Positions 548-7,658 of a stretch of 13,750 nucleotides of DNA are shown piece after piece; position 1 is the first letter of the stretch; every line of letters starts with the position of its first letter. The position numbers and the translations under genes were made by a program. This DNA comes from a virus, in UHGV virus genome UHGV-0152983. One strand, given 5' to 3'. A model generated the notes under the pieces. That model worked only from the letters and a program-made list of their open reading frames with translations. It was not told the DNA's origin and searched no databases.

Positions 548-1234
548 TCAGTAGCGATGCAGTGAAGGCGGCAACTCTTTGTTCTTAAGCCTTTCCCATG
601 CCAGAAGGTTCGTCGGCCCGTCAGGCTCATAAATATCTATATCCCGCGTGTGATTAATTAAAACGCCCCTCGCCCTCCCGATGATATACGAGAACTCATA
701 GCCGTAGTCGTGGCATATGCCGGAATAGCCAGACTGAATCAGTTTTAATGCGGGATACAACTCACGGAACAATGCCTGTGAGCGGTTGGCATAATCCCAC
801 AGCCATACAAGGCTGTCTGTTTCTTTTGCGGAAAGCCCGTTGGGCTTCTTCTCTTGTTTGCCAGTATTTTTCTCGCACTGGCTGAAATAGCAGTCTTCCA
901 GCCGTTCGAACACATCCCACGCTTGGTTAGTTTCAAGCATTTTAGCGTGACGTGCAGCCCCGCGTTCTGTCCAGAGGATGAGAGAGCGAGTTTTGGGGGA
1001 AATTTGTACCTCATTTTGTGACTCGTTTAAAACTAGTCGCAAATTTTTGAGTTCATCACCAACAGCTTTAAAGAAGTGCTTCCCCTCAATGAACCGAGTT
1101 TTATTTTCATGGTGATTTTGCTGTATACGGATTGCTTCTGTTCCATAAAGGCGGGCGAGTAGCTCAGTTGTGATTACTGGAATCTGATTATGCAGGATAG
1201 GCTGTAGGGTGTTAACGGTCGGAAGCGTTTTCAT
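548..1234 (-). CDS. Roi/ORF6N-like DNA-binding protein (antirepressor-like), 228 aa
   Basis: ORF in track. N-terminal segment [45 protein letters not shown] fits the ORF6N-type motif seen in Roi-like proteins of lambdoid nin regions. Start overlaps the upstream ORF stop (ATGA at 1231-1234). Confidence 0.55.
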
Positions 1235-1422: not shown

Positions 1423-1585
1423 GGTGATAGTTCCCTTAAAGGTTAAGGATACTCACCACCGTCTGGTTCCAATCATTGGGTGGTGAGACGTACAGGGTTG
1501 GAACTACCGGTCACCATGGAATCCGGCGAGTCTTACGACTCCCCCGCACGCCCCACCATAATTTGGGTGTAGCAGTGCTTTACGC

Positions 1586-1610
1586 ATAAAAAAACCGCTA
1601 ACGCGGTATG
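1586..1610 (-). terminator. Candidate rho-independent terminator downstream of ninE (tR-like)
   Basis: Minus-strand reading: ACCGC-GTTA-GCGGT hairpin followed by seven T (complement of the A-run 1588-1594). The stem is short (5 bp), so this is tentative. Confidence 0.4.
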
Positions 1611-1697
1611 CGCCATGATGATTATCGGGGTTCCAATCCCGACGCCAGATTTTGCTGGCGTGTGAGGAATATAGCCCCGAATAAATCATCACGTCAA

Positions 1698-1880
1698 TCA
1701 CCTTGTTTTCCTCGCACGATGTCTTAGCCACCGGATATCCCACAGGTGAGCCGTGTAATTGAAGGTTTTTACGTCAGATTCTTTTGGGGTTGGCTTGGGT
1801 TTATTTCTGGAGCGTTTCGTTGGAAGGTATTTGCAGTTTTCGCAGATGATGTCGGTGAAACTTCGTCGCTGTCGCCTCAT
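1698..1880 (-). CDS. ninE: NinE-like protein, 60 aa
   Basis: Internal Met of track ORF 1698..1907: [60 protein letters not shown], which matches my recollection of lambda NinE. The ATG overlaps the ninB stop (ATGA). Confidence 0.75.
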
Positions 1881-2323
1881 GCCTCCCTCCCTGTTCGTTG
1901 TGACCATTCATACTCTCGCCGGGAGTCATCACTCCACCGCACGTTGCGCTCTGAGCCGAACCAAAACATGATTTCGATAAGCTCAGTCATGCTGGCCTTT
2001 CGCATTTTGCTGGTACGCACGCCAAGCATGACAACGCCACCGTCGATACCAGGCACACTTCGTTGCTCCAGTTTTTTGGTCTTAAGCCACAGGGCAGTGA
2101 ACAGGTCTTTCCAGTCTTCCGGCGCCAGCCGTTGACCATGCCATAGCACCTGACGCGAAACATCGTTCAGCATCGGCCACATACGGTCATTCTGCGCTTT
2201 GCTACGCTTGGGTTCTTTAACGTGGACTTCGTGGGGTGACTTGTCGTCGATGGGAAGTGAGAGTATTGCGTCTATGGCGTTATTTCTGATTGCTTCGTTG
2301 CGAAGCATGTATATTTGCTTCAT
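1877..2323 (-). CDS. ninB: NinB (Orf-family recombination protein), 148 aa
   Basis: ORF in track; the segment [37 protein letters not shown] and the length match lambda NinB. Confidence 0.8.
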
Positions 2324-2330
2324 CGTTACC

Positions 2331-2537
2331 TCAACTCACAAAACGCCACGCCACTTTTGCTACGACAACAGGCATAACACCGATAATCACCCACAGGAAA
2401 ATGCTACCGAAAAGCACACCAACCAGGTCTTTACCTTCGCCTACCAACCGGACAAAACAGCCAGCAACTACAATGAACGTCGCCACCATCCACAGAGCAC
2501 CGAGAAGCCTCAATGCAGAGAAAATCAACTCAACCAC
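2331..2537 (-). CDS. Small hydrophobic (probably two-helix membrane) protein, 68 aa
   Basis: ORF in track; almost entirely hydrophobic sequence with two apolar stretches; apparent GTG start preceded by GGGGGAGAG. Confidence 0.45.
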   Translation of the reverse strand: MVELIFSALRLLGALWMVATFIVVAGCFVRLVGEGKDLVGVLFGSIFLWVIIGVMPVVVAKVAWRFVS

Positions 2538-2560
2538 GATTTACTCTCCCCCAAATAAAA

Positions 2561-2596
2561 AGGCCTGCGATTACCAGCAGGCCTTTATCTTTTTTT
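2561..2596. terminator. Bidirectional hairpin terminator immediately after the HNH gene
   Basis: AGGCCTGC (2561-2568) / GCAGGCCT (2577-2584) stem with 8-nt loop; T-rich tracts flank it on both strands (ttatcttttttt on +, TTTTATTT on -). Confidence 0.6.
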
Positions 2597-3196
2597 AACA
2601 CGCTTTCGAGTCCTTTTAGATTTTTCCTTAAGATATTCCGCAAGTTTATCCTCATCATTATTAAATTGAGATAAAAGCTCATGCTCGCAATTAAGTGCTT
2701 TACTCGCATAAGTTCCATATAGTTTCTTTCTTGCTAGTGCTGCTATGAATGCTGCATCTTCTTTGCTATCGAAATACCCTAACGATATTGTCTTATTTTT
2801 ATAACCAACATAAGACTTCCACCTGCCAGTTGTCTTATCCCAAGACACTCCAATCGCACCGGATGTGTTTAACCTATTACCTACAATGTTTCTTGCATTC
2901 TGCTCCTCTGTTGCCAGTCTTAGATTTGAAATCCTATTGTCAAGTCTGTTCCCATTTACATGATCAATAAACTTAGGAGGCCATTTTTTGTATACATAGA
3001 ACCAAGCAAGCCTATGCGCATAATACAAAACATTATTTATGCTAATGCATATATAACCACCACTAACACCTCCAGCAATACTACCTTTTACTCTTACTAC
3101 TGAATTTGTTTTTAGCCATTTAAATATTCCTGTTTCTGAGTCATATGATAATGTTGACAGAAGCTCATCGTGATCAATTGGTTTTTTTATTCGCAT
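2585..3196 (-). CDS. HNH endonuclease with AP2-type DNA-binding domain (free-standing homing-endonuclease-like), 203 aa
   Basis: ORF in track; HNH motif IDHVNGNRLDNRISNLRLATEEQNARN; AP2-like segment GVSWDKTTGRWKSYVGYKNKTISLGYFDSKEDAA; gene and flanks are conspicuously AT-rich compared with neighbours. Confidence 0.8.
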   Translation of the reverse strand: MRIKKPIDHDELLSTLSYDSETGIFKWLKTNSVVRVKGSIAGGVSGGYICISINNVLYYAHRLAWFYVYKKWPPKFIDHVNGNRLDNRISNLRLATEEQNARNIVGNRLNTSGAIGVSWDKTTGRWKSYVGYKNKTISLGYFDSKEDAAFIAALARKKLYGTYASKALNCEHELLSQFNNDEDKLAEYLKEKSKRTRKRVKKR

Positions 3197-3278: not shown

Positions 3279-5159
3279 TTAATACTCCGTCACGTTTTCC
3301 TGTCGCCACGCCTCGTCATATTCCGATTTCGGCATATTGGCGATGTAGCTATATGGCGATCCTGATTCAAGTTGCAGGAACTGGTGCGATTGCTCGTCAA
3401 GGAACAACGGGACACCACCTTCCCAACCTTCGCCGTTACGTTGTTTTTCAAGCATCAAAACAGATGCAGGAGACGCCAGTAGCTGTTCGTCCTTCTCTGA
3501 CATCTTTTCACCACTCTGAACTCTCTGTAACGCTCTCTCGCGAGCCTTGTTACGCCAGATGATGAAAAGGTTGTCTGTCAGGTCTGTTATCGCTCCAGAG
3601 CCTTTTACGTCCATTTTCCCGGTTGGTTTTTCTTCGCTGTCTCCTTTTCGCGAGTGAGTAACGAGAATGACGTGGGAGTTTGTTTTGTTTTTGAAGTCGC
3701 AAATCGAGTCAACAAACGCCTTCTGCCCGTTATAGTCATCGTCGCCTATGCCACATTTCATCAGGCTGTCGATGATGAATAACTGGATCCCGTATCGGCG
3801 GCGAGCGTAGTCGAATATTTCGATCAGCCTGTCGGCTTTCGCCGTTCCGGTCAGGCCAAACACCCAAAGTCTTTCGTCATAAAATTTAAATGCAGAGTCA
3901 ATTTCCAGCACTGGCGGCATCTTGCAGCACGTCGCCTGACGGGTAAGGCGCTTAAGGAGAATACCAGGCTTCAGCTCAAGTGACGCGATGCACGTCTTCA
4001 CACCCTGACGCATTGCCTCAAGTGCCATATGCCCGACAACCTCCGTTTTTCCGTGACCGTTCACCCCATTGACCAGCGTCAACTCTGCCTCACGGAACTG
4101 GAATTTATCTGCCAGAGATTCCCACGGTGGATTAAACAGATACTGCTGCTTGCCGTAGAAAGCGTTGATAGTGTCCTGGTAAAACTCTCGCGCGCTGTAG
4201 AGTTCTTCAGGATCGAAGTAGGATGCCGTGCCGATGTACTGCCAGATTTCATCCTCGGTAACACCGTTCATCAGGCATTCGTTGATGTCTTTGTACGGCA
4301 GAGTAACAAGACGGCAACGATGTTCACCGAGTCGGCTTGCGATTTCCCTTGCGGCTTCACGACCAACATCATCAACGTCCATCGAGATGAATATTTCCTC
4401 AAACCTGTCGAGGTTGTGATACTCAAACTCAATCCACTGTTGCTTAGCGCCTTTCCCGCCACCAAACGGCACGGATAACGCCGAGATGCCGTATTGCGCA
4501 TAGCTCATACAATCAATTTCGCCTTCGCAAAGCACAACCGCCCTCACGCCAGCGTCCAGAGCCTGCCATCCGAACAGGCAAGGTTCGCAATCACCTTCTG
4601 CCATAATGACTTTCTTCCCGTCCGGGCGCTCAGTGCTGATTCGCTTGACCTGCAACAACTCACCATCGCGTTTGTACGGAATCACCAGAGCATCCAGTTC
4701 CCGCTCTCCATTCCACACCTTGCCGCTGACAACCTCGTAGCGCTTTACGATTTCTGGCGATATGCCACGCGATTGCAGGTACTCAAGATGGGATTCTGTT
4801 CTGGTAACGTAGCGGGCGATTTTCTTGCGATCAGGTCTGGAGAATTTCTTCTCACGTCTGGCATCGAAATGGTGATCGTCATCCTTGATACCGAGAAATG
4901 CTTTCGCTTCCTGCATAGCCTGATGCAGGTTAATTCCACGACATGCCATCCACAAATCAAGCATGTCACCGCCGTCTCCCTCAGCGAAATCAGCCCATTT
5001 TTTCTTGCCGCTAAGGTTGACCTTAAGGCTGTTTCCCTTGTCACCGTTGACGTTACCGGCAACCCACTCATGCCCCTCTTTCTTGCCGTTTGGCAACAGG
5101 TGTGGAGCCACCCTGTCAACCTGCGCCCAAAGCAGGTAGCTAAGTTCACTTGGAGTCAT
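3279..5159 (-). CDS. Bifunctional DNA primase/helicase (toprim domain plus DnaB-like RecA-fold ATPase), 626 aa
   Basis: ORF in track; toprim-like acidic motifs (VVLCEGEIDCMS, FISMDVDDVGREAA); Walker A GVNGHGKTE and Walker B LFIIDSLMK; GAGGG Shine-Dalgarno 5 nt upstream of the ATG. Confidence 0.85.
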   Translation of the reverse strand: MTPSELSYLLWAQVDRVAPHLLPNGKKEGHEWVAGNVNGDKGNSLKVNLSGKKKWADFAEGDGGDMLDLWMACRGINLHQAMQEAKAFLGIKDDDHHFDARREKKFSRPDRKKIARYVTRTESHLEYLQSRGISPEIVKRYEVVSGKVWNGERELDALVIPYKRDGELLQVKRISTERPDGKKVIMAEGDCEPCLFGWQALDAGVRAVVLCEGEIDCMSYAQYGISALSVPFGGGKGAKQQWIEFEYHNLDRFEEIFISMDVDDVGREAAREIASRLGEHRCRLVTLPYKDINECLMNGVTEDEIWQYIGTASYFDPEELYSAREFYQDTINAFYGKQQYLFNPPWESLADKFQFREAELTLVNGVNGHGKTEVVGHMALEAMRQGVKTCIASLELKPGILLKRLTRQATCCKMPPVLEIDSAFKFYDERLWVFGLTGTAKADRLIEIFDYARRRYGIQLFIIDSLMKCGIGDDDYNGQKAFVDSICDFKNKTNSHVILVTHSRKGDSEEKPTGKMDVKGSGAITDLTDNLFIIWRNKARERALQRVQSGEKMSEKDEQLLASPASVLMLEKQRNGEGWEGGVPLFLDEQSHQFLQLESGSPYSYIANMPKSEYDEAWRQENVTEY

Positions 5160-5266
5160 GATTCCCTCAGATTGAGATTTTTAAACCAGAAATCGACAAA
5201 CGAAATACTTAACCAGCCGTGGTTATAACCAGCGACCAGTAACGATTTGATTTTTGATTTCATGGT

Positions 5267-6043
5267 TCACCTGTCGAAAAACACGTAGCCAGTTTTCGAT
5301 ACGGTGATTGCGGATGATGGTTTGGATTGTGGTTGAATAGTTTCTGGCTTCTCGTCGTTCCAGCGTTGACCGTTCAGGTAGCTCGATGGTAACAACCTGT
5401 CGAATCCGAACTGCTTACCATTCCTGCATGCGATGTCTTCTGCCAGCATCGTGGCAAACTCGCTTGCCGTACCCCTGGTAGTTTTACGCCATTCCCTGAA
5501 CTGTGTTCTGAATGCTGAAGCTGCGTTTTTCTTCCCGGCTTTCCGCATGCCTGCACACCAGAATATTTCCTCGAATGCCTTGTCGGTTTCTTCGTGACGG
5601 TCAGGAGTTTTTTCACACTCTGTTCGGACATGTTCGAACATAATGTTTTTAGGTTCATTGACTGGTTCAAAAGAGTGATAGGTTCTGGGGGCAGCTCCTG
5701 CCCCACCCCCTAGGGCAGCTCCTGCCCCACCCCGGGCAGCTCCTGCCCCACCTGATTCTGGCTGGATTTGTTGTGCATTATCCAGCGTCAGATAAAAAAC
5801 GTTTGACTGGTTAAGCTCTCCTTTTCTTCTGAATTCCCTTTTCAAAAGCCCCATCTCTTCCAGTGCCCTAATGTGACTTTTTACTGTCGATCTGCTCACC
5901 TCACACTGGTCAGCGACATGTTGATATGAAGGCCAGCATTCGCCATTATCATTGGCGTTATCGGCAAGTTTAATCAGAACCAGTTTTCTCAGTGGGTTGC
6001 CAACCTTTATATTCATGGCCTTAGCCATAAGATTCATGCTCAT
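5267..6043 (-). CDS. Replication initiation protein (O-like role) with N-terminal winged-HTH, 258 aa
   Basis: ORF in track; N-terminus NPLRKLVLIKLADNANDNGECWPSYQHVADQCEVSRSTVKSHIRALEEMGLLKR is the HTH type found in phage/plasmid replication initiators; sits directly upstream of the primase-helicase; contains the internal iteron array. Confidence 0.7.
   Translation of the reverse strand: MSMNLMAKAMNIKVGNPLRKLVLIKLADNANDNGECWPSYQHVADQCEVSRSTVKSHIRALEEMGLLKREFRRKGELNQSNVFYLTLDNAQQIQPESGGAGAARGGAGAALGGGAGAAPRTYHSFEPVNEPKNIMFEHVRTECEKTPDRHEETDKAFEEIFWCAGMRKAGKKNAASAFRTQFREWRKTTRGTASEFATMLAEDIACRNGKQFGFDRLLPSSYLNGQRWNDEKPETIQPQSKPSSAITVSKTGYVFFDR
5687..5756. repeat. Three tandem iteron-like direct repeats (GGGCAGCTCCTGCCCCACC), each with internal dyad GGGCAG/CTGCCC; candidate replication origin inside the initiator gene
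   Basis: Copies at 5689-5707, 5713-5731 and 5734-5752; they encode a Gly/Ala-rich linker (GGAGAARGGAGAALGGGAGAA) in the initiator. Same 10-mer TTGACTGGTT flanks the array at 5658-5667 and 5803-5812. Confidence 0.55.
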
Positions 6044-6183
6044 TTTGACTTCTCCGAAGTTTTGTACCTGTTAAGTATTTCTCTCAGTGGCACAGCTATT
6101 GCTGGATTAACCCCCTGATAAAACTGGTCACGTAGCACATCTTTTCGGTGATTAACGCGTTTATTTTCCTGCGTTTTTCGCAT
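6040..6183 (-). CDS. Small basic ORF, 47 aa, between cII and the initiator
   Basis: Internal Met of track ORF 6040..6351 (the upstream part overlaps cII in another frame); GAGG Shine-Dalgarno 7 nt upstream; stop overlaps the initiator ATG (ATGA). Confidence 0.4.
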   Translation of the reverse strand: MRKTQENKRVNHRKDVLRDQFYQGVNPAIAVPLREILNRYKTSEKSK

Positions 6184-6205
6184 ATAATTACCTCGCTGGA
6201 TGTTG

Positions 6206-6505
6206 TTAAAATTCCATCTGGATTTGTTCAGAACGCTCGGTCTTGCACACCGGGCGTTTTTTATTGGTGAGTCCATCAAGCGCATACTTAAAAGCCCTGC
6301 TAATCGGACTGATGTCTGATGCCATTCCGAAAGCACACAAGACCGAAGCAATAAATCTCCAGTCCGTTCTGCTTATCTTCGATTCATGACAGCCAATCAT
6401 CTTTGCCAGACCGCGCTGGGTAATCGCTGACAGGTTGATGAGTAAATCTGTTTCTGCGCGATCAACGTCGCGCTGTGATAGTTTGCTGTAACTTGTTCTT
6501 TCCAT
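6206..6505 (-). CDS. cII: CII transcriptional activator, 99 aa, lambda-like C-terminus with divergent N-terminal and central region
   Basis: ORF in track; C-terminus LTNKKRPVCKTERSEQIQMEF matches my recollection of lambda CII (TNKKRPAATERSEQIQMEF); position immediately downstream of cro and nutR. Confidence 0.8.
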   Translation of the reverse strand: MERTSYSKLSQRDVDRAETDLLINLSAITQRGLAKMIGCHESKISRTDWRFIASVLCAFGMASDISPISRAFKYALDGLTNKKRPVCKTERSEQIQMEF

Positions 6506-6868: not shown

Positions 6869-6938
6869 ATTATCACCGCCAGAGGTAAAATAGTCAACAT
6901 CTGCGGTGTTAGATATTTATCCCCTGCGGTGATAGATT
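6869..6938. promoter_or_regulatory. OR operator region with divergent PR (towards cro) and PRM (towards cI)
   Basis: OR1 TATCACCGCCAGAGGTA 6871-6887; OR2 CAACATCTGCGGTGTTA 6895-6911; OR3 TATCCCCTGCGGTGATA 6918-6934. PR on minus strand: -35 TTGACT (complement of 6892-6897), 17-nt spacer, -10 GATAAT (complement of 6869-6874). PRM on plus strand: -35 TAGATA 6910-6915, -10 TAGATT 6933-6938; the cI ATG at 6945 gives a near-leaderless transcript as in lambda. Confidence 0.85.
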
Positions 6939-6941
6939 TAA

Positions 6942-7658
<717 letters not shown>

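What the first reader, a model, noticed from the sequence alone, without database searches (positions are those of the whole stretch)
5658..5812. Iteron array with flanking direct repeats inside the initiator gene: candidate origin
Three tandem copies of GGGCAGCTCCTGCCCCACC lie at 5689-5707, 5713-5731 and 5734-5752 (spacing 24 and 21 bp), each with an internal dyad GGGCAG/CTGCCC. They sit inside the coding sequence of the HTH replication initiator, as the lambda ori iterons sit inside O, and they encode a Gly/Ala-rich linker. The array is flanked by an identical 10-mer TTGACTGGTT (5658-5667 and 5803-5812; the 145-bp offset is not a multiple of 3, so this is not a protein repeat) and by a dyad GCTGGAT...ATCCAGC (5761-5786).
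Basis: partly seen in the sequence, partly recalled or inferred. Interest (0 to 1): 0.6.

Follow-up and report, generated by a model that had tools for sequence, protein, structure and literature searches.

The report
Replication origin inside a prophage initiator gene
The three repeats are very probably the initiator-binding sites of this lambda-like E. coli prophage's replication origin, an arrangement well known from phage lambda, and beside them lies a short DNA element conserved letter for letter across hundreds of related prophages.

Summary
The array is real: three copies of GGGCAGCTCCTGCCCC at 5689, 5713 and 5734, and nowhere else in 13.75 kb (0.25 expected). It lies in the linker of an HTH_36 "O-like" initiator (5267-6043, minus strand), in the cI-cro-cII-O-helicase layout of a lambdoid prophage. 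The prophage is 98% identical to Stx phages 24B and Min27 (replication type "Eru5").

Comparative evidence supports the origin reading:
- Relatives with diverged recognition helices each carry their own 15-nt dyad sites, at 21-24 bp phasing and in a fixed register.
- A chimera with a true lambda-O N-domain carries lambda-type iterons at the same place, fused to the same C-domain and primase-helicase.
- The encoded peptide is not conserved; the DNA grammar is.

Copy number runs from 1 to 9, and a viable phage has one site. So tandem multiplicity is not essential.

Of the flanking features, the dyad and the upstream 10-mer are chance. The downstream 10-mer belongs to a 39-nt element (5651-5689) with fixed codons in 73 independently chosen prophages. 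This is probably the origin core.

The kind is known (origin inside the initiator gene). This member and the conserved element appear undescribed. Nothing was tested experimentally.

The parts
5267..6043 (-). O-like replication initiator gene (258 aa). It has an N-terminal winged-helix domain, a repeat-encoded linker and a C-terminal helicase-coupling domain.
   Evidence: ORF; translation; Pfam HTH_36 at 5.3e-14 with no Phage_rep_O hit; PHROG 'replication initiation protein' at 2e-79; annotated O in phage 24B.
5780..6043 (-). N-terminal HTH_36 winged-helix domain (about aa 1-88). The recognition helix SRSTVKSHIR and the wing REFRRKGELNQSN are the variable parts.
   Evidence: Pfam stretch aa 17-67; alignment of relatives shows an invariant N-terminal 45 aa with a variable helix 3 and wing.
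5734..5749 (.). Iteron site 1 (distal from the core element). Plus strand GGGCAGCTCCTGCCCC; in gene sense GGGGCAGGAGCTGCCC.
5713..5728 (.). Iteron site 2, 21 bp from site 1.
5689..5704 (.). Iteron site 3 (proximal), 24 bp from site 2. With G5688 it forms the 17-nt dyad GGGGCAG-CTC-CTGCCCC. It sits in the family-wide fixed register next to the core element.
5651..5689 (-). Conserved 39-nt element. Gene sense: CCC AGA ACC TAT CAC TCT TTT GAA CCA GTC AAT GAA CCT. The family consensus holds GAACCAGTCA twice, 17 nt apart, in two reading frames. In the window the first copy is degenerate (GAACCTATCA, 5676-5687). Proposed origin core.
   Evidence: Codon fixation in 73 loci chosen only by N-domain peptides: R=AGA 70/70, S=AGT 73/73, E=GAA 72/72. 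Same-codon rate is 0.915 against 0.41 in the N-domain. The first sample gave 0.95 against 0.36. The motif occurs in another reading frame in mEp010.
5615..5650 (.). AT-rich stretch with the near-palindrome TGTTCGGACATGTTCGAACA (5621-5640). The AT-richest 30-mers of the gene span 5630-5672. Candidate unwinding or helicase-entry region.
   Evidence: AT content is 64% here against 51.5% for the gene; hairpin reported; this stretch is shared at DNA level with mEp043-type O genes, where homology ends at 5651.
5270..5323 (-). C-terminal tail KPSSAITVSKTGYVFFDR of the initiator. Proposed contact with the primase-helicase.
   Evidence: The tail, or a similar aromatic tail, occurs only where a primase-helicase homolog is present in the locus. 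115 complete O-like genes lack both.
3279..5159 (-). Primase-helicase (626 aa; Toprim_2 plus a DnaB-like helicase domain). It is the replicative partner recruited by the initiator.
   Evidence: Pfam; PHROG DNA primase/helicase at 2.7e-171; 99% identical in mEp043-type loci and 93% identical in SI8 and S135.
6869..6897 (-). pR-like promoter (TTGACT-17-GATAAT) that would drive cro-cII-O-primase-helicase transcription through the origin.
   Evidence: Consensus scan, 10 of 12 matches; position matches pR as annotated in 24B.
5803..5812 (.). Upstream copy of TTGACTGGTT. A coincidence of coding LNQSN, not part of the origin.
   Evidence: Relatives of the same class vary synonymously here; chance statistics.
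5761..5786 (.). Dyad GCTGGAT...ATCCAGC. Not conserved; treated as chance.
   Evidence: Lost in most close relatives and in 24B.

Best explanation
This is the replication origin of a lambdoid prophage whose replication module is the 24B/Min27 or 'Eru5' type. It is built like ori-lambda but uses a non-homologous initiator.

The proposed mechanism has four steps.
1. Transcription from pR makes the 258-aa initiator.
2. Dimers of its N-terminal HTH_36 winged-helix domain bind the 15-17-bp dyad sites GGGGCAG-N3-CTGCCCC (three here). The sites lie in the DNA that encodes the protein's own inter-domain linker and are spaced 21 and 24 bp apart. That is about two helical turns, and always a multiple of three, so expansion and contraction of the array keep the reading frame.
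3. Binding destabilises the adjacent conserved 39-nt element (5651-5689) and the AT-rich near-palindrome (5615-5650).
4. The initiator's C-terminal domain and tail bring in the phage's own gp4-like primase-helicase, which then unwinds and primes.

What is shown here: the anatomy, the synteny, co-variation of site with recognition helix, the fixed register, the module swap with a lambda-O-type N-domain, DNA-level selection on the element, and co-occurrence of the tail with the helicase.

What is inferred: binding, unwinding, helicase recruitment and origin activity.
For: Context. The layout is cI-cro-cII-O-primase-helicase-nin. The region is 98% identical to phages 24B, Min27 and Stx2a_F403, and 24B has the same three sites.

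Specificity. In 122 loci falling into 18 recognition-helix classes, each class has its own dyad:
- SKRSVMNHI with GTGCA-N5-TTCAC
- CSKSAVRNHI with TGCCA-N5-TGGCA
- TRRSAI with GTGAA-N5-TTCAC
- SRKTAIGHI with GTGTA-N5-TACAC
- (S/G)RSTVK.HIR with GGGCA-N5-TGCCC, the window class.
Within arrays the arms are conserved and the centres vary.

Register. Perfect dyads peak at -17, -41, -62 to -65, -83 to -86 and -107 from the element in 73 independently chosen loci.

Coding. The encoded peptides are unrelated (GGAGAA, GSANNSL, PMPPDGT, SENFAL, PSDKMS), while the DNA frame G(T/G)Gnn-N5-nnC(A/C)C is kept.

Module swap. The mEp043-type O has a Phage_rep_O N-domain (1e-37) and three lambda-like iterons, TGTCACCAAAACGGTGACA, at 24 and 23 bp spacing at the same position. 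It is fused to the same C-domain and followed by a 99%-identical primase-helicase.

Composition. The AT-richest 30-mers of the gene lie directly downstream.

Exclusivity. No other copy of the site exists in 13.75 kb, so it is not a promoter operator.

Literature. Lambda, P22 and phage L each carry distinct iterons inside the O/18 gene (PMC8022706). Ori-lambda consists of iterons plus an AT-rich tract in the middle of O, with 4 iterons in lambda and 6 in Stx phages (PMC7466680).
Against: No experiment was done. Binding, unwinding and origin activity are all inferred.

Copy number varies from 1 to 9 among near-identical genes. The isolated phage SI8 has exactly one site in 5.3 kb, whereas the papers cited in PMC7466680 report that two iterons are the minimum for ori-lambda. 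The perfect identity of the three copies, and the homogenised C-to-A change in every copy of one sub-lineage, show rapid slippage or unequal exchange, as in any coding tandem repeat.

The region downstream is only moderately AT-rich (58-64%). One relaxed DnaA box (5609-5617) is not conserved. The initiator has no solved homolog, so dimeric binding to the dyad is an assumption.
Confidence: 0.8

Rival explanations
1. The repeats are only a slippage-prone coding tandem repeat that makes a flexible Gly/Ala linker between two protein domains. They have no DNA-level function, and the origin lies elsewhere.
For: Copy number is 1-9 among near-identical genes, and the copies are identical to the base. 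One sub-lineage has the same non-synonymous change in all copies, which indicates concerted evolution. A viable phage has one copy. Many draft contigs break inside the array.
Against: Across lineages the linker peptide is not conserved in sequence or composition. The dyad frame, the 21-24 bp phasing and the fixed distance to the conserved element are all conserved. In arrays with non-identical copies the arms are conserved and the centres vary, which is the signature of a binding site rather than of slippage. Site sequence tracks the recognition helix. No relative examined lacks the site altogether.
Confidence: 0.07
2. The sites are true initiator-binding sites but act in control, for example autoregulation, a transcriptional roadblock or copy-number handcuffing. 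Initiation occurs at another sequence, such as downstream of the primase-helicase as in P4 or PICI elements.
For: Variable copy number is typical of control iterons. The sites sit in the pR transcript path. The primase-helicase might have its own recognition site.
Against: No other comparable repeat array or AT-rich iteron cluster exists in the 13.75-kb window. The sites lie in a fixed register beside a DNA-level conserved element and the AT-richest stretch of the gene. The same architecture occurs with at least 9 unrelated C-terminal domains and with different helicase systems, so it goes with the initiator and not with a particular helicase.
Confidence: 0.08
3. This rival concerns the 39-nt element only. 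Its conservation reflects a conserved peptide (PRTSHSFEPVxEP), or its role as a homologous-recombination linker at the joint between exchangeable N- and C-terminal modules. On this view it is not an origin function.
For: The element does encode a conserved peptide. It lies exactly at the mosaic joint: at least 9 unrelated C-domain families follow it, and DNA homology to mEp043-type genes ends at 5651.
Against: A peptide constraint cannot fix codons. AGA, AGT, TCT and GAA are used in 66-73 of 73 loci, including high-GC Pseudomonas, while conserved N-domain columns use several codons (major-codon frequency 0.55). Where the element varies, the changes are often non-synonymous (T to I, P to S, F to S) rather than third-position. 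The 10-mer occurs twice in two reading frames, and in a third frame in mEp010. Selection for recombinability alone is a weak force.
Confidence: 0.2

Closest known systems
Ori-lambda inside gene O (lambda, and Stx phages 933W and P27)
   Same: The origin lies in the middle of the initiator gene at the domain boundary. It has tandem dyad-symmetric iterons of about 19 bp at roughly two-turn spacing, followed in the direction of O transcription by an AT-rich tract and a palindrome. The N-domain binds the iterons and the C-domain recruits the helicase system. Iteron number differs between phages, 4 against 6 (PMC7466680). The genomic position after cII is the same.
   Different: The initiator N-domain is HTH_36, not Phage_rep_O. 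The sites are GC-rich (23% AT). The partner is a self-contained primase-helicase rather than P plus host DnaB. [quoted passage not shown] Copy number ranges from 1 to 9.
mEp043 / Sf101-type O genes (Phage_rep_O N-domain with this window's C-domain)
   Same: The C-domain from VRTECEK onward is the same, as is the AT-rich near-palindrome DNA. The primase-helicase is 99% identical, and iterons sit at the same place in the gene.
   Different: The N-domain family differs, the iteron differs (TGTCACCAAAACGGTGACA), and there is no GAACCAGTCA element.
P22 gene 18 and phage L gene 18 predicted origins
   Same: They are described as distant O relatives, each with its own repeats inside the coding region that are taken to be the origin (PMC8022706). 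P22-like phages SI8 and S135 carry this very N-domain family together with the primase-helicase.
   Different: The sequences and repeat types differ: about 20 bp times 4 in P22, and 11 bp times 6 in L. The partner there is a DnaB-type helicase. Those origins are also assigned largely by analogy.
Iteron plasmid origins (RK2, F, R6K, pPS10) with Rep binding to single-stranded DNA of the unwinding element
   Same: Phased iterons are bound by a winged-helix initiator and lie next to an unwinding element that holds short repeated motifs. In those plasmids the initiator recognises these motifs sequence-specifically as single strands (PMC4081077, abstract seen). This is the best analogy for the GAACCAGTCA repeats.
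   Different: Plasmid iterons lie outside the rep gene. The Rep proteins belong to another family. DnaA boxes are integral there, whereas here the single relaxed box is not conserved.
Eru5 replication unit of Stx phages (Fagerlund et al. 2022)
   Same: It is the same module. The representative, Stx2a_F403, is 98.3% identical over the initiator region. The authors define it by an HTH_36 protein plus a primase.
   Different: That work classifies the proteins only. It states that nothing is known about the replication of Eru phages and does not mention iterons or an origin.

Membership tests
Lambdoid origin-in-initiator-gene (ori-lambda type) | Tandem dyad-symmetric initiator-binding repeats inside the initiator gene at the boundary between its two domains | tested here: met
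   Three 15-17-bp dyads at 5689, 5713 and 5734, between the HTH_36 domain and the C-domain.
Lambdoid origin-in-initiator-gene (ori-lambda type) | The gene lies in the pR operon after cro and cII and is followed by the helicase or helicase-loader gene | tested here: met
   cI 6945-7658 (+), cII 6206-6505 (-), O 5267-6043 (-), primase-helicase 3279-5159 (-).
Lambdoid origin-in-initiator-gene (ori-lambda type) | An AT-rich tract, and a palindrome, immediately downstream of the iterons in the direction of O transcription | tested here: met
   The AT-richest 30-mers of the gene span 5630-5672. The stretch 5615-5650 is 64% AT against 51.5% for the gene. The near-palindrome is at 5621-5640. The enrichment is modest.
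Lambdoid origin-in-initiator-gene (ori-lambda type) | Iteron sequence co-varies with the initiator N-domain, and the C-domain co-varies with the helicase partner | tested here: met
   18 recognition-helix classes, each with its own dyad. Chimera with a Phage_rep_O N-domain. The C-terminal tail occurs only with the primase-helicase.
Lambdoid origin-in-initiator-gene (ori-lambda type) | The initiator N-domain is homologous to lambda O (Pfam Phage_rep_O, PF04492) | tested here: not met
   The window protein hits HTH_36 only. Phage_rep_O is found in the mEp043-type protein at 1e-37 but not here. So it works like ori-lambda without being a sequence-family member.
Lambdoid origin-in-initiator-gene (ori-lambda type) | The initiator binds the repeats, and the fragment supports initiator-dependent replication | not testable with these tools
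   This needs gel-shift or footprinting assays and an origin-cloning assay.
Iteron-plasmid origin (Rep_3 / RepA-type) | Iterons located outside the rep gene, with a Rep protein of the Rep_3 / WH1-WH2 family | tested here: not met
   The sites are inside the coding sequence. Pfam gives HTH_36, and there is no solved-structure homolog.
Iteron-plasmid origin (Rep_3 / RepA-type) | Conserved DnaA box or boxes next to the iterons | tested here: inconclusive
   One relaxed box, TTTTTCACA, at 5609-5617. It is altered in several close relatives.
Plain coding tandem repeat (null model) | Conservation is explained by the encoded peptide or by recent duplication alone, with no cross-lineage DNA grammar | tested here: not met
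   The peptides are unrelated across lineages, while the dyad frame, the phasing and the register are kept.

The most novel reading that the evidence does not exclude
The 39-nt element next to the iterons (consensus CCC AGA ACC AGT CAC TCT TTT GAA CCA GTC AAx GAA CC) may be a universal, sequence-specific origin core. It would serve as an unwinding or loading site, read either by the invariant N-terminal part of the initiator or by a host factor, perhaps as single-stranded DNA.

It is shared by a large class of gammaproteobacterial prophages, whatever their iteron specificity (at least 18 classes) and whatever their helicase-coupling domain (at least 9 families). It is held fixed at codon level while also being translated.

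If so, this initiator family has a two-part origin grammar: private iterons plus a public core. The core would also be a simple marker for locating origins in hundreds of prophages.
Probability: 0.45. Interest if true: 0.6.

Novelty: new member of a known kind. Interest (0 to 1): 0.42.

Why it matters
Phages with this replication module (24B, Min27, Stx2a_F403; type "Eru5") carry Stx2a in highly virulent EHEC, and toxin output depends on phage replication. The paper that defined the Eru types states that nothing is known about how these phages replicate (PMC8951638).

A mapped origin with its specificity determinants gives three practical things:
- a testable minimal replicon;
- a way to predict replication incompatibility or cross-activation between co-resident prophages;
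- a typing marker.

More generally, the family gives a clean natural data set of matched recognition helices and DNA sites for a winged-helix initiator. It also gives an example of DNA that must satisfy coding, protein binding and helical phasing at once. The codon-fixed element is a concrete candidate for a conserved unwinding or loading signal.

Tried and rejected
- Solved structures: only marginal HTH hits (E of about 0.3), so no structural model of site recognition was possible. Structure prediction was not attempted, because only near-identical sequences could be supplied as an alignment.
- Rfam: nothing in the origin region.
- Promoter scan: no sigma-70-like promoter at the element, although TTGACT resembles a -35 box.
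- DnaA and IHF: one relaxed DnaA box, not conserved. The only IHF consensus match in the scanned region (5240) lies about 450 bp from the array.
- RNA structure: the region 5610-5700 folds moderately well (z = -2.2). The pairing is between the element and lineage-specific C-domain sequence, so it cannot explain family-wide conservation.
- Cruciform: single-strand folding of the array is not exceptional (z = -2.0).
- Plasmid search for a mini-replicon made of this module: the only near-full match and the half-length (C-domain) matches are mostly phage-sized circular records of 40-54 kb, plus two ~165-kb plasmids, and none is a mini-replicon. This is not informative.
- Literature search for the iteron and the element as strings: no paper holds the iteron, and the 10-mer appears only in unrelated primer lists.
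- GC-skew profile: dominated by the divergent transcription units, so not informative about the origin.
Full report
**What the window is**

The window is the early region of a lambdoid prophage of E. coli. The stretch 5200-6100 is 100% identical to E. coli W224N and 98% identical to the Stx2 phages 24B, Min27 and Stx2a_F403. It matches 305 of 5426 complete E. coli genomes.

The gene order is cI (6945-7658, +), cro, cII (6206-6505, -), an "O" gene (5267-6043, -) and a 626-aa primase-helicase (3279-5159, -; Toprim_2 plus a DnaB-like domain). An HNH endonuclease and the nin genes follow.

This O plus primase pair is the replication unit called Eru5 by Fagerlund et al. Their representative is Stx2a_F403. 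They state that nothing is known about the replication of Eru phages, and they mention no origin (PMC8951638). The 24B genome paper does not describe one either.

**The observation**

The three copies of GGGCAGCTCCTGCCCC(ACC) are at 5689, 5713 and 5734, spaced 24 and 21 bp. GGGCA-N5-TGCCC with up to one mismatch occurs three times in 13.75 kb, all here, against 0.25 expected; no shuffle reaches three.

Read on the minus strand, the array encodes GGAGAA-R-GGAGAA-LG-GGAGAA. This lies between the HTH_36 domain (Pfam 5e-14) and the C-terminal half of the protein. Phage 24B has the identical array.

The flanking features fare differently:
- The dyad GCTGGAT...ATCCAGC is lost in most near-identical relatives, including 24B.
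- The 10-mer pair is at chance level.
- The upstream 10-mer copy (5803-5812, coding LNQSN) varies synonymously in relatives of the same class.

**Copy number**

In 43 viral contigs with near-identical genes, the unit [GGGGCAGGAGCTGCCC] plus ggggt (21 nt) or tagggggt (24 nt) occurs 1 to 6 times. Database proteins of 272-305 aa carry up to nine units.

One sub-lineage has CTGACC in every copy, which indicates concerted evolution. The isolated Salmonella phage SI8, whose N-domain is 95% identical, has a single site in 5.3 kb.

So the array turns over quickly, and tandem multiplicity is not essential. Both unit lengths are multiples of three and close to two helical turns. That is what one expects if a binding-site array must expand in frame.

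**Is it a binding-site array or just a slippery linker?**

I fetched relatives found only by similarity of the N-domain protein (tblastn, 412 phage records). I also fetched 122 loci through the conserved element described below.

Every lineage has its own array at the same place, directly after the winged-helix domain. The sites are 15-nt dyads of the frame G(T/G)Gnn-N5-nnC(A/C)C with 21-24 bp phasing.

The sites track the recognition helix:

| Recognition helix | Dyad site |
|---|---|
| SKRSVMNHI | GTGCA-N5-TTCAC |
| CSKSAVRNHI | TGCCA-N5-TGGCA |
| TRRSAI.HI | GTGAA-N5-TTCAC |
| SRKTAIGHI | GTGTA-N5-TACAC |
| DKRTAMRHI | GTGA(T/C)-N5-GTCAC |
| (S/G)RSTVK.HIR (window class) | GGGCA-N5-TGCCC |

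Within arrays whose copies are not identical, the arms are kept and the centres vary. Examples are mEp460 and the window-class loci L113, L195 and L198.

The encoded peptides are unrelated between lineages (GGAGAA, GSANNSL, PMPPDGT, SENFAL, PSDKMS). A constraint on the linker protein therefore cannot explain the pattern.

In an independent set of 73 prophages, perfect dyads pile up at -17, -41, -62 to -65, -83 to -86 and -107 from a fixed landmark. This is the behaviour of phased sites for a dimeric DNA-binding domain.

**A natural module swap**

The O genes of mEp043, Sf101 and about 35 viral contigs share this window's C-domain (from VRTECEK) and a 99%-identical primase-helicase. Their N-domain, however, is a genuine lambda-O domain (Phage_rep_O, 1e-37). 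At the position of our repeats they carry three lambda-like iterons, TGTCACCAAAACGGTGACA, spaced 24 and 23 bp.

DNA homology to the window stops at 5651. The unit that is exchanged is therefore "N-domain plus its repeats". This is what the rule for lambdoid origins predicts: iteron specificity resides in the N-terminal half of O, and helicase specificity in the C-terminal half.

In the other direction, the HTH_36 module is joined to at least nine unrelated C-terminal families. The tail ...TVSKTGYVFFDR, or a similar aromatic tail, appears only where a primase-helicase homolog is present in the locus.

**The conserved element**

Immediately after the last site, all these genes read CCC AGA ACC AGT CAC TCT TT(T/A) GAA CCA GTC AAx GAA CC. 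In the window this is 5651-5689, with the first GAACCAGTCA degenerated to GAACCTATCA. The 10-mer GAACCAGTCA occurs twice, 17 nt apart, in two different reading frames.

I tested whether the conservation is at the DNA level. In eight phages chosen only by their N-domain, identical amino acids share the same codon at 36% of N-domain positions and at 95% of positions in the element.

I repeated this on 80 prophage loci from genome assemblies. These were selected by two N-domain peptide patterns only and come from Pantoea, Pseudomonas, Xenorhabdus, Shewanella, Aeromonas, Vibrio, Photobacterium, Erwinia and others. Of these, 73 have an intact gene that carries the element. The codons are fixed:

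| Residue | Codon | Count |
|---|---|---|
| Arg | AGA | 70/70 |
| Ser | AGT | 73/73 |
| His | CAC | 69/69 |
| Ser | TCT | 66/66 |
| Glu | GAA | 72/72 and 71/71 |
| Thr | ACC | 56/56 |
| Pro | CCA | 58/65 |
| Val | GTC | 69/72 |

Conserved N-domain columns use several codons each, with a mean major-codon frequency of 0.55. The pairwise same-codon rate is 0.41 in the N-domain against 0.915 in the element.

Where the element does vary, the changes are often non-synonymous. Phage mEp010 carries AACCAGTCA-N5-AACCAGTAA in yet another reading frame. The lambda-O-type gene lacks the element.

The element is therefore under DNA-level (or RNA-level) selection. An RNA hairpin is an unlikely cause, because the predicted pairing partner is lineage-specific.

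My reading is that it is the core of the origin: the place that is opened or where the helicase enters. The closest analogy is the repeated motifs of plasmid unwinding elements, which Rep proteins bind as single strands (PMC4081077). That step is inference.

**Anatomy compared with ori-lambda**

In the direction of O transcription the order is:
1. three dyad sites (23% AT);
2. the 39-nt element (58% AT);
3. the AT-richest stretch of the gene (5630-5672), with a near-palindrome at 5621-5640.

Ori-lambda is described as iterons followed by an AT-rich tract in the middle of O. It has four iterons in lambda and six in Stx phages. According to the papers cited there, two iterons plus the AT tract suffice for unwinding (PMC7466680). 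Casjens and colleagues note that lambda, P22 and L each carry different repeats inside the O/18 gene and take these to be the origins (PMC8022706).

The kind is thus well known. The initiator here is not a sequence-family member of lambda O (HTH_36, not Phage_rep_O). Its partner is a self-contained primase-helicase.

**Verdict**

The main caveats are the single-site viable phage and the high turnover of the array.

The finding is a new member of a known kind. Neither the site nor the element appears in the searchable literature. The codon-fixed element is the part a specialist might find new.

Noticed in passing
window 6183-6266 (+ strand): A candidate oop-like antisense RNA. There is a perfect -10 TATAAT at 6183-6188, and a 12-bp-stem terminator at 6230-6260 followed by a T run. 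The RNA would be antisense to the last ~55 nt of cII (6206-6505, minus strand), as for lambda oop.
   Followed up: partly
window 1476-1563 (-) and 1588-1661 (-): Rfam matches to C4 antisense RNA (84 bits) and to the Hfq-binding sRNA isrK (72 bits), just upstream of the P22-type antirepressor gene (548-1234, minus strand).
   Followed up: no
L042 about 1550-3000 (IMG/VR UViG_2537561977_000031): An IS110-family element is inserted inside the iteron array, right after the second repeat, splitting the initiator gene. Its 398-aa transposase matches DEDD_Tnp_IS110 at 7e-49. IS110 elements often choose specific repeated targets, so the array may be such a target.
   Followed up: partly
window 2585-3196 (-) and 3279-5159 (-): An HNH/AP2 homing-type endonuclease gene lies directly downstream of the primase-helicase. 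In phage 24B the same helicase gene is 2907 bp long and is reported to contain an intein, which is absent here (1881 bp).
   Followed up: no
window 5979-5998 and 6109-6128: A 20-nt inverted repeat (90% complementary, 110 nt apart) brackets the start codon of the initiator gene (6043). The same pair is present in relative L042. It may be an RNA structure controlling initiator translation, or part of the oop-like promoter region.
   Followed up: no
window 5609-5617 (+): An exact match to the relaxed DnaA box TTWTNCACA (TTTTTCACA), about 35 bp beyond the conserved element. About 0.07 are expected per 1.2 kb. It is altered in several close relatives, so it is probably not essential.
   Followed up: partly
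window 5705-5712, and the same position in relatives (L084, L087, L115, L130 and others): The spacer between the two element-proximal sites is 24 bp centre to centre in nearly all specificity classes. It holds a G5 or C5 tract (TAGGGGGT, CAGGGGGTA or CCCCCTA) in either orientation.
   Followed up: partly
L036-L041, L045 (IMG/VR contigs): Several draft contigs begin or end inside the repeat array. This is probably assembly breakage at the repeats, which means copy numbers from short-read assemblies may be unreliable.
   Followed up: no
L051 about 3020-3035, compared with window 5676-5687: After its last lambda-type iteron, mEp043 reads AGAAACTATTAC. This resembles the window's degenerate first motif copy AGAACCTATCAC more than the family consensus AGAACCAGTCAC does. 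It may be a trace of the recombination that created the chimeric genes.
   Followed up: no
plasmid hits H108 (Klebsiella, 41 kb) and H109 (Enterobacter asburiae, 139 kb): These plasmids match the window only over about 5643-5729, which is the conserved element plus the first site, inside genes annotated as HTH-domain proteins. The same origin grammar may therefore occur on plasmids or phage-plasmids.
   Followed up: no
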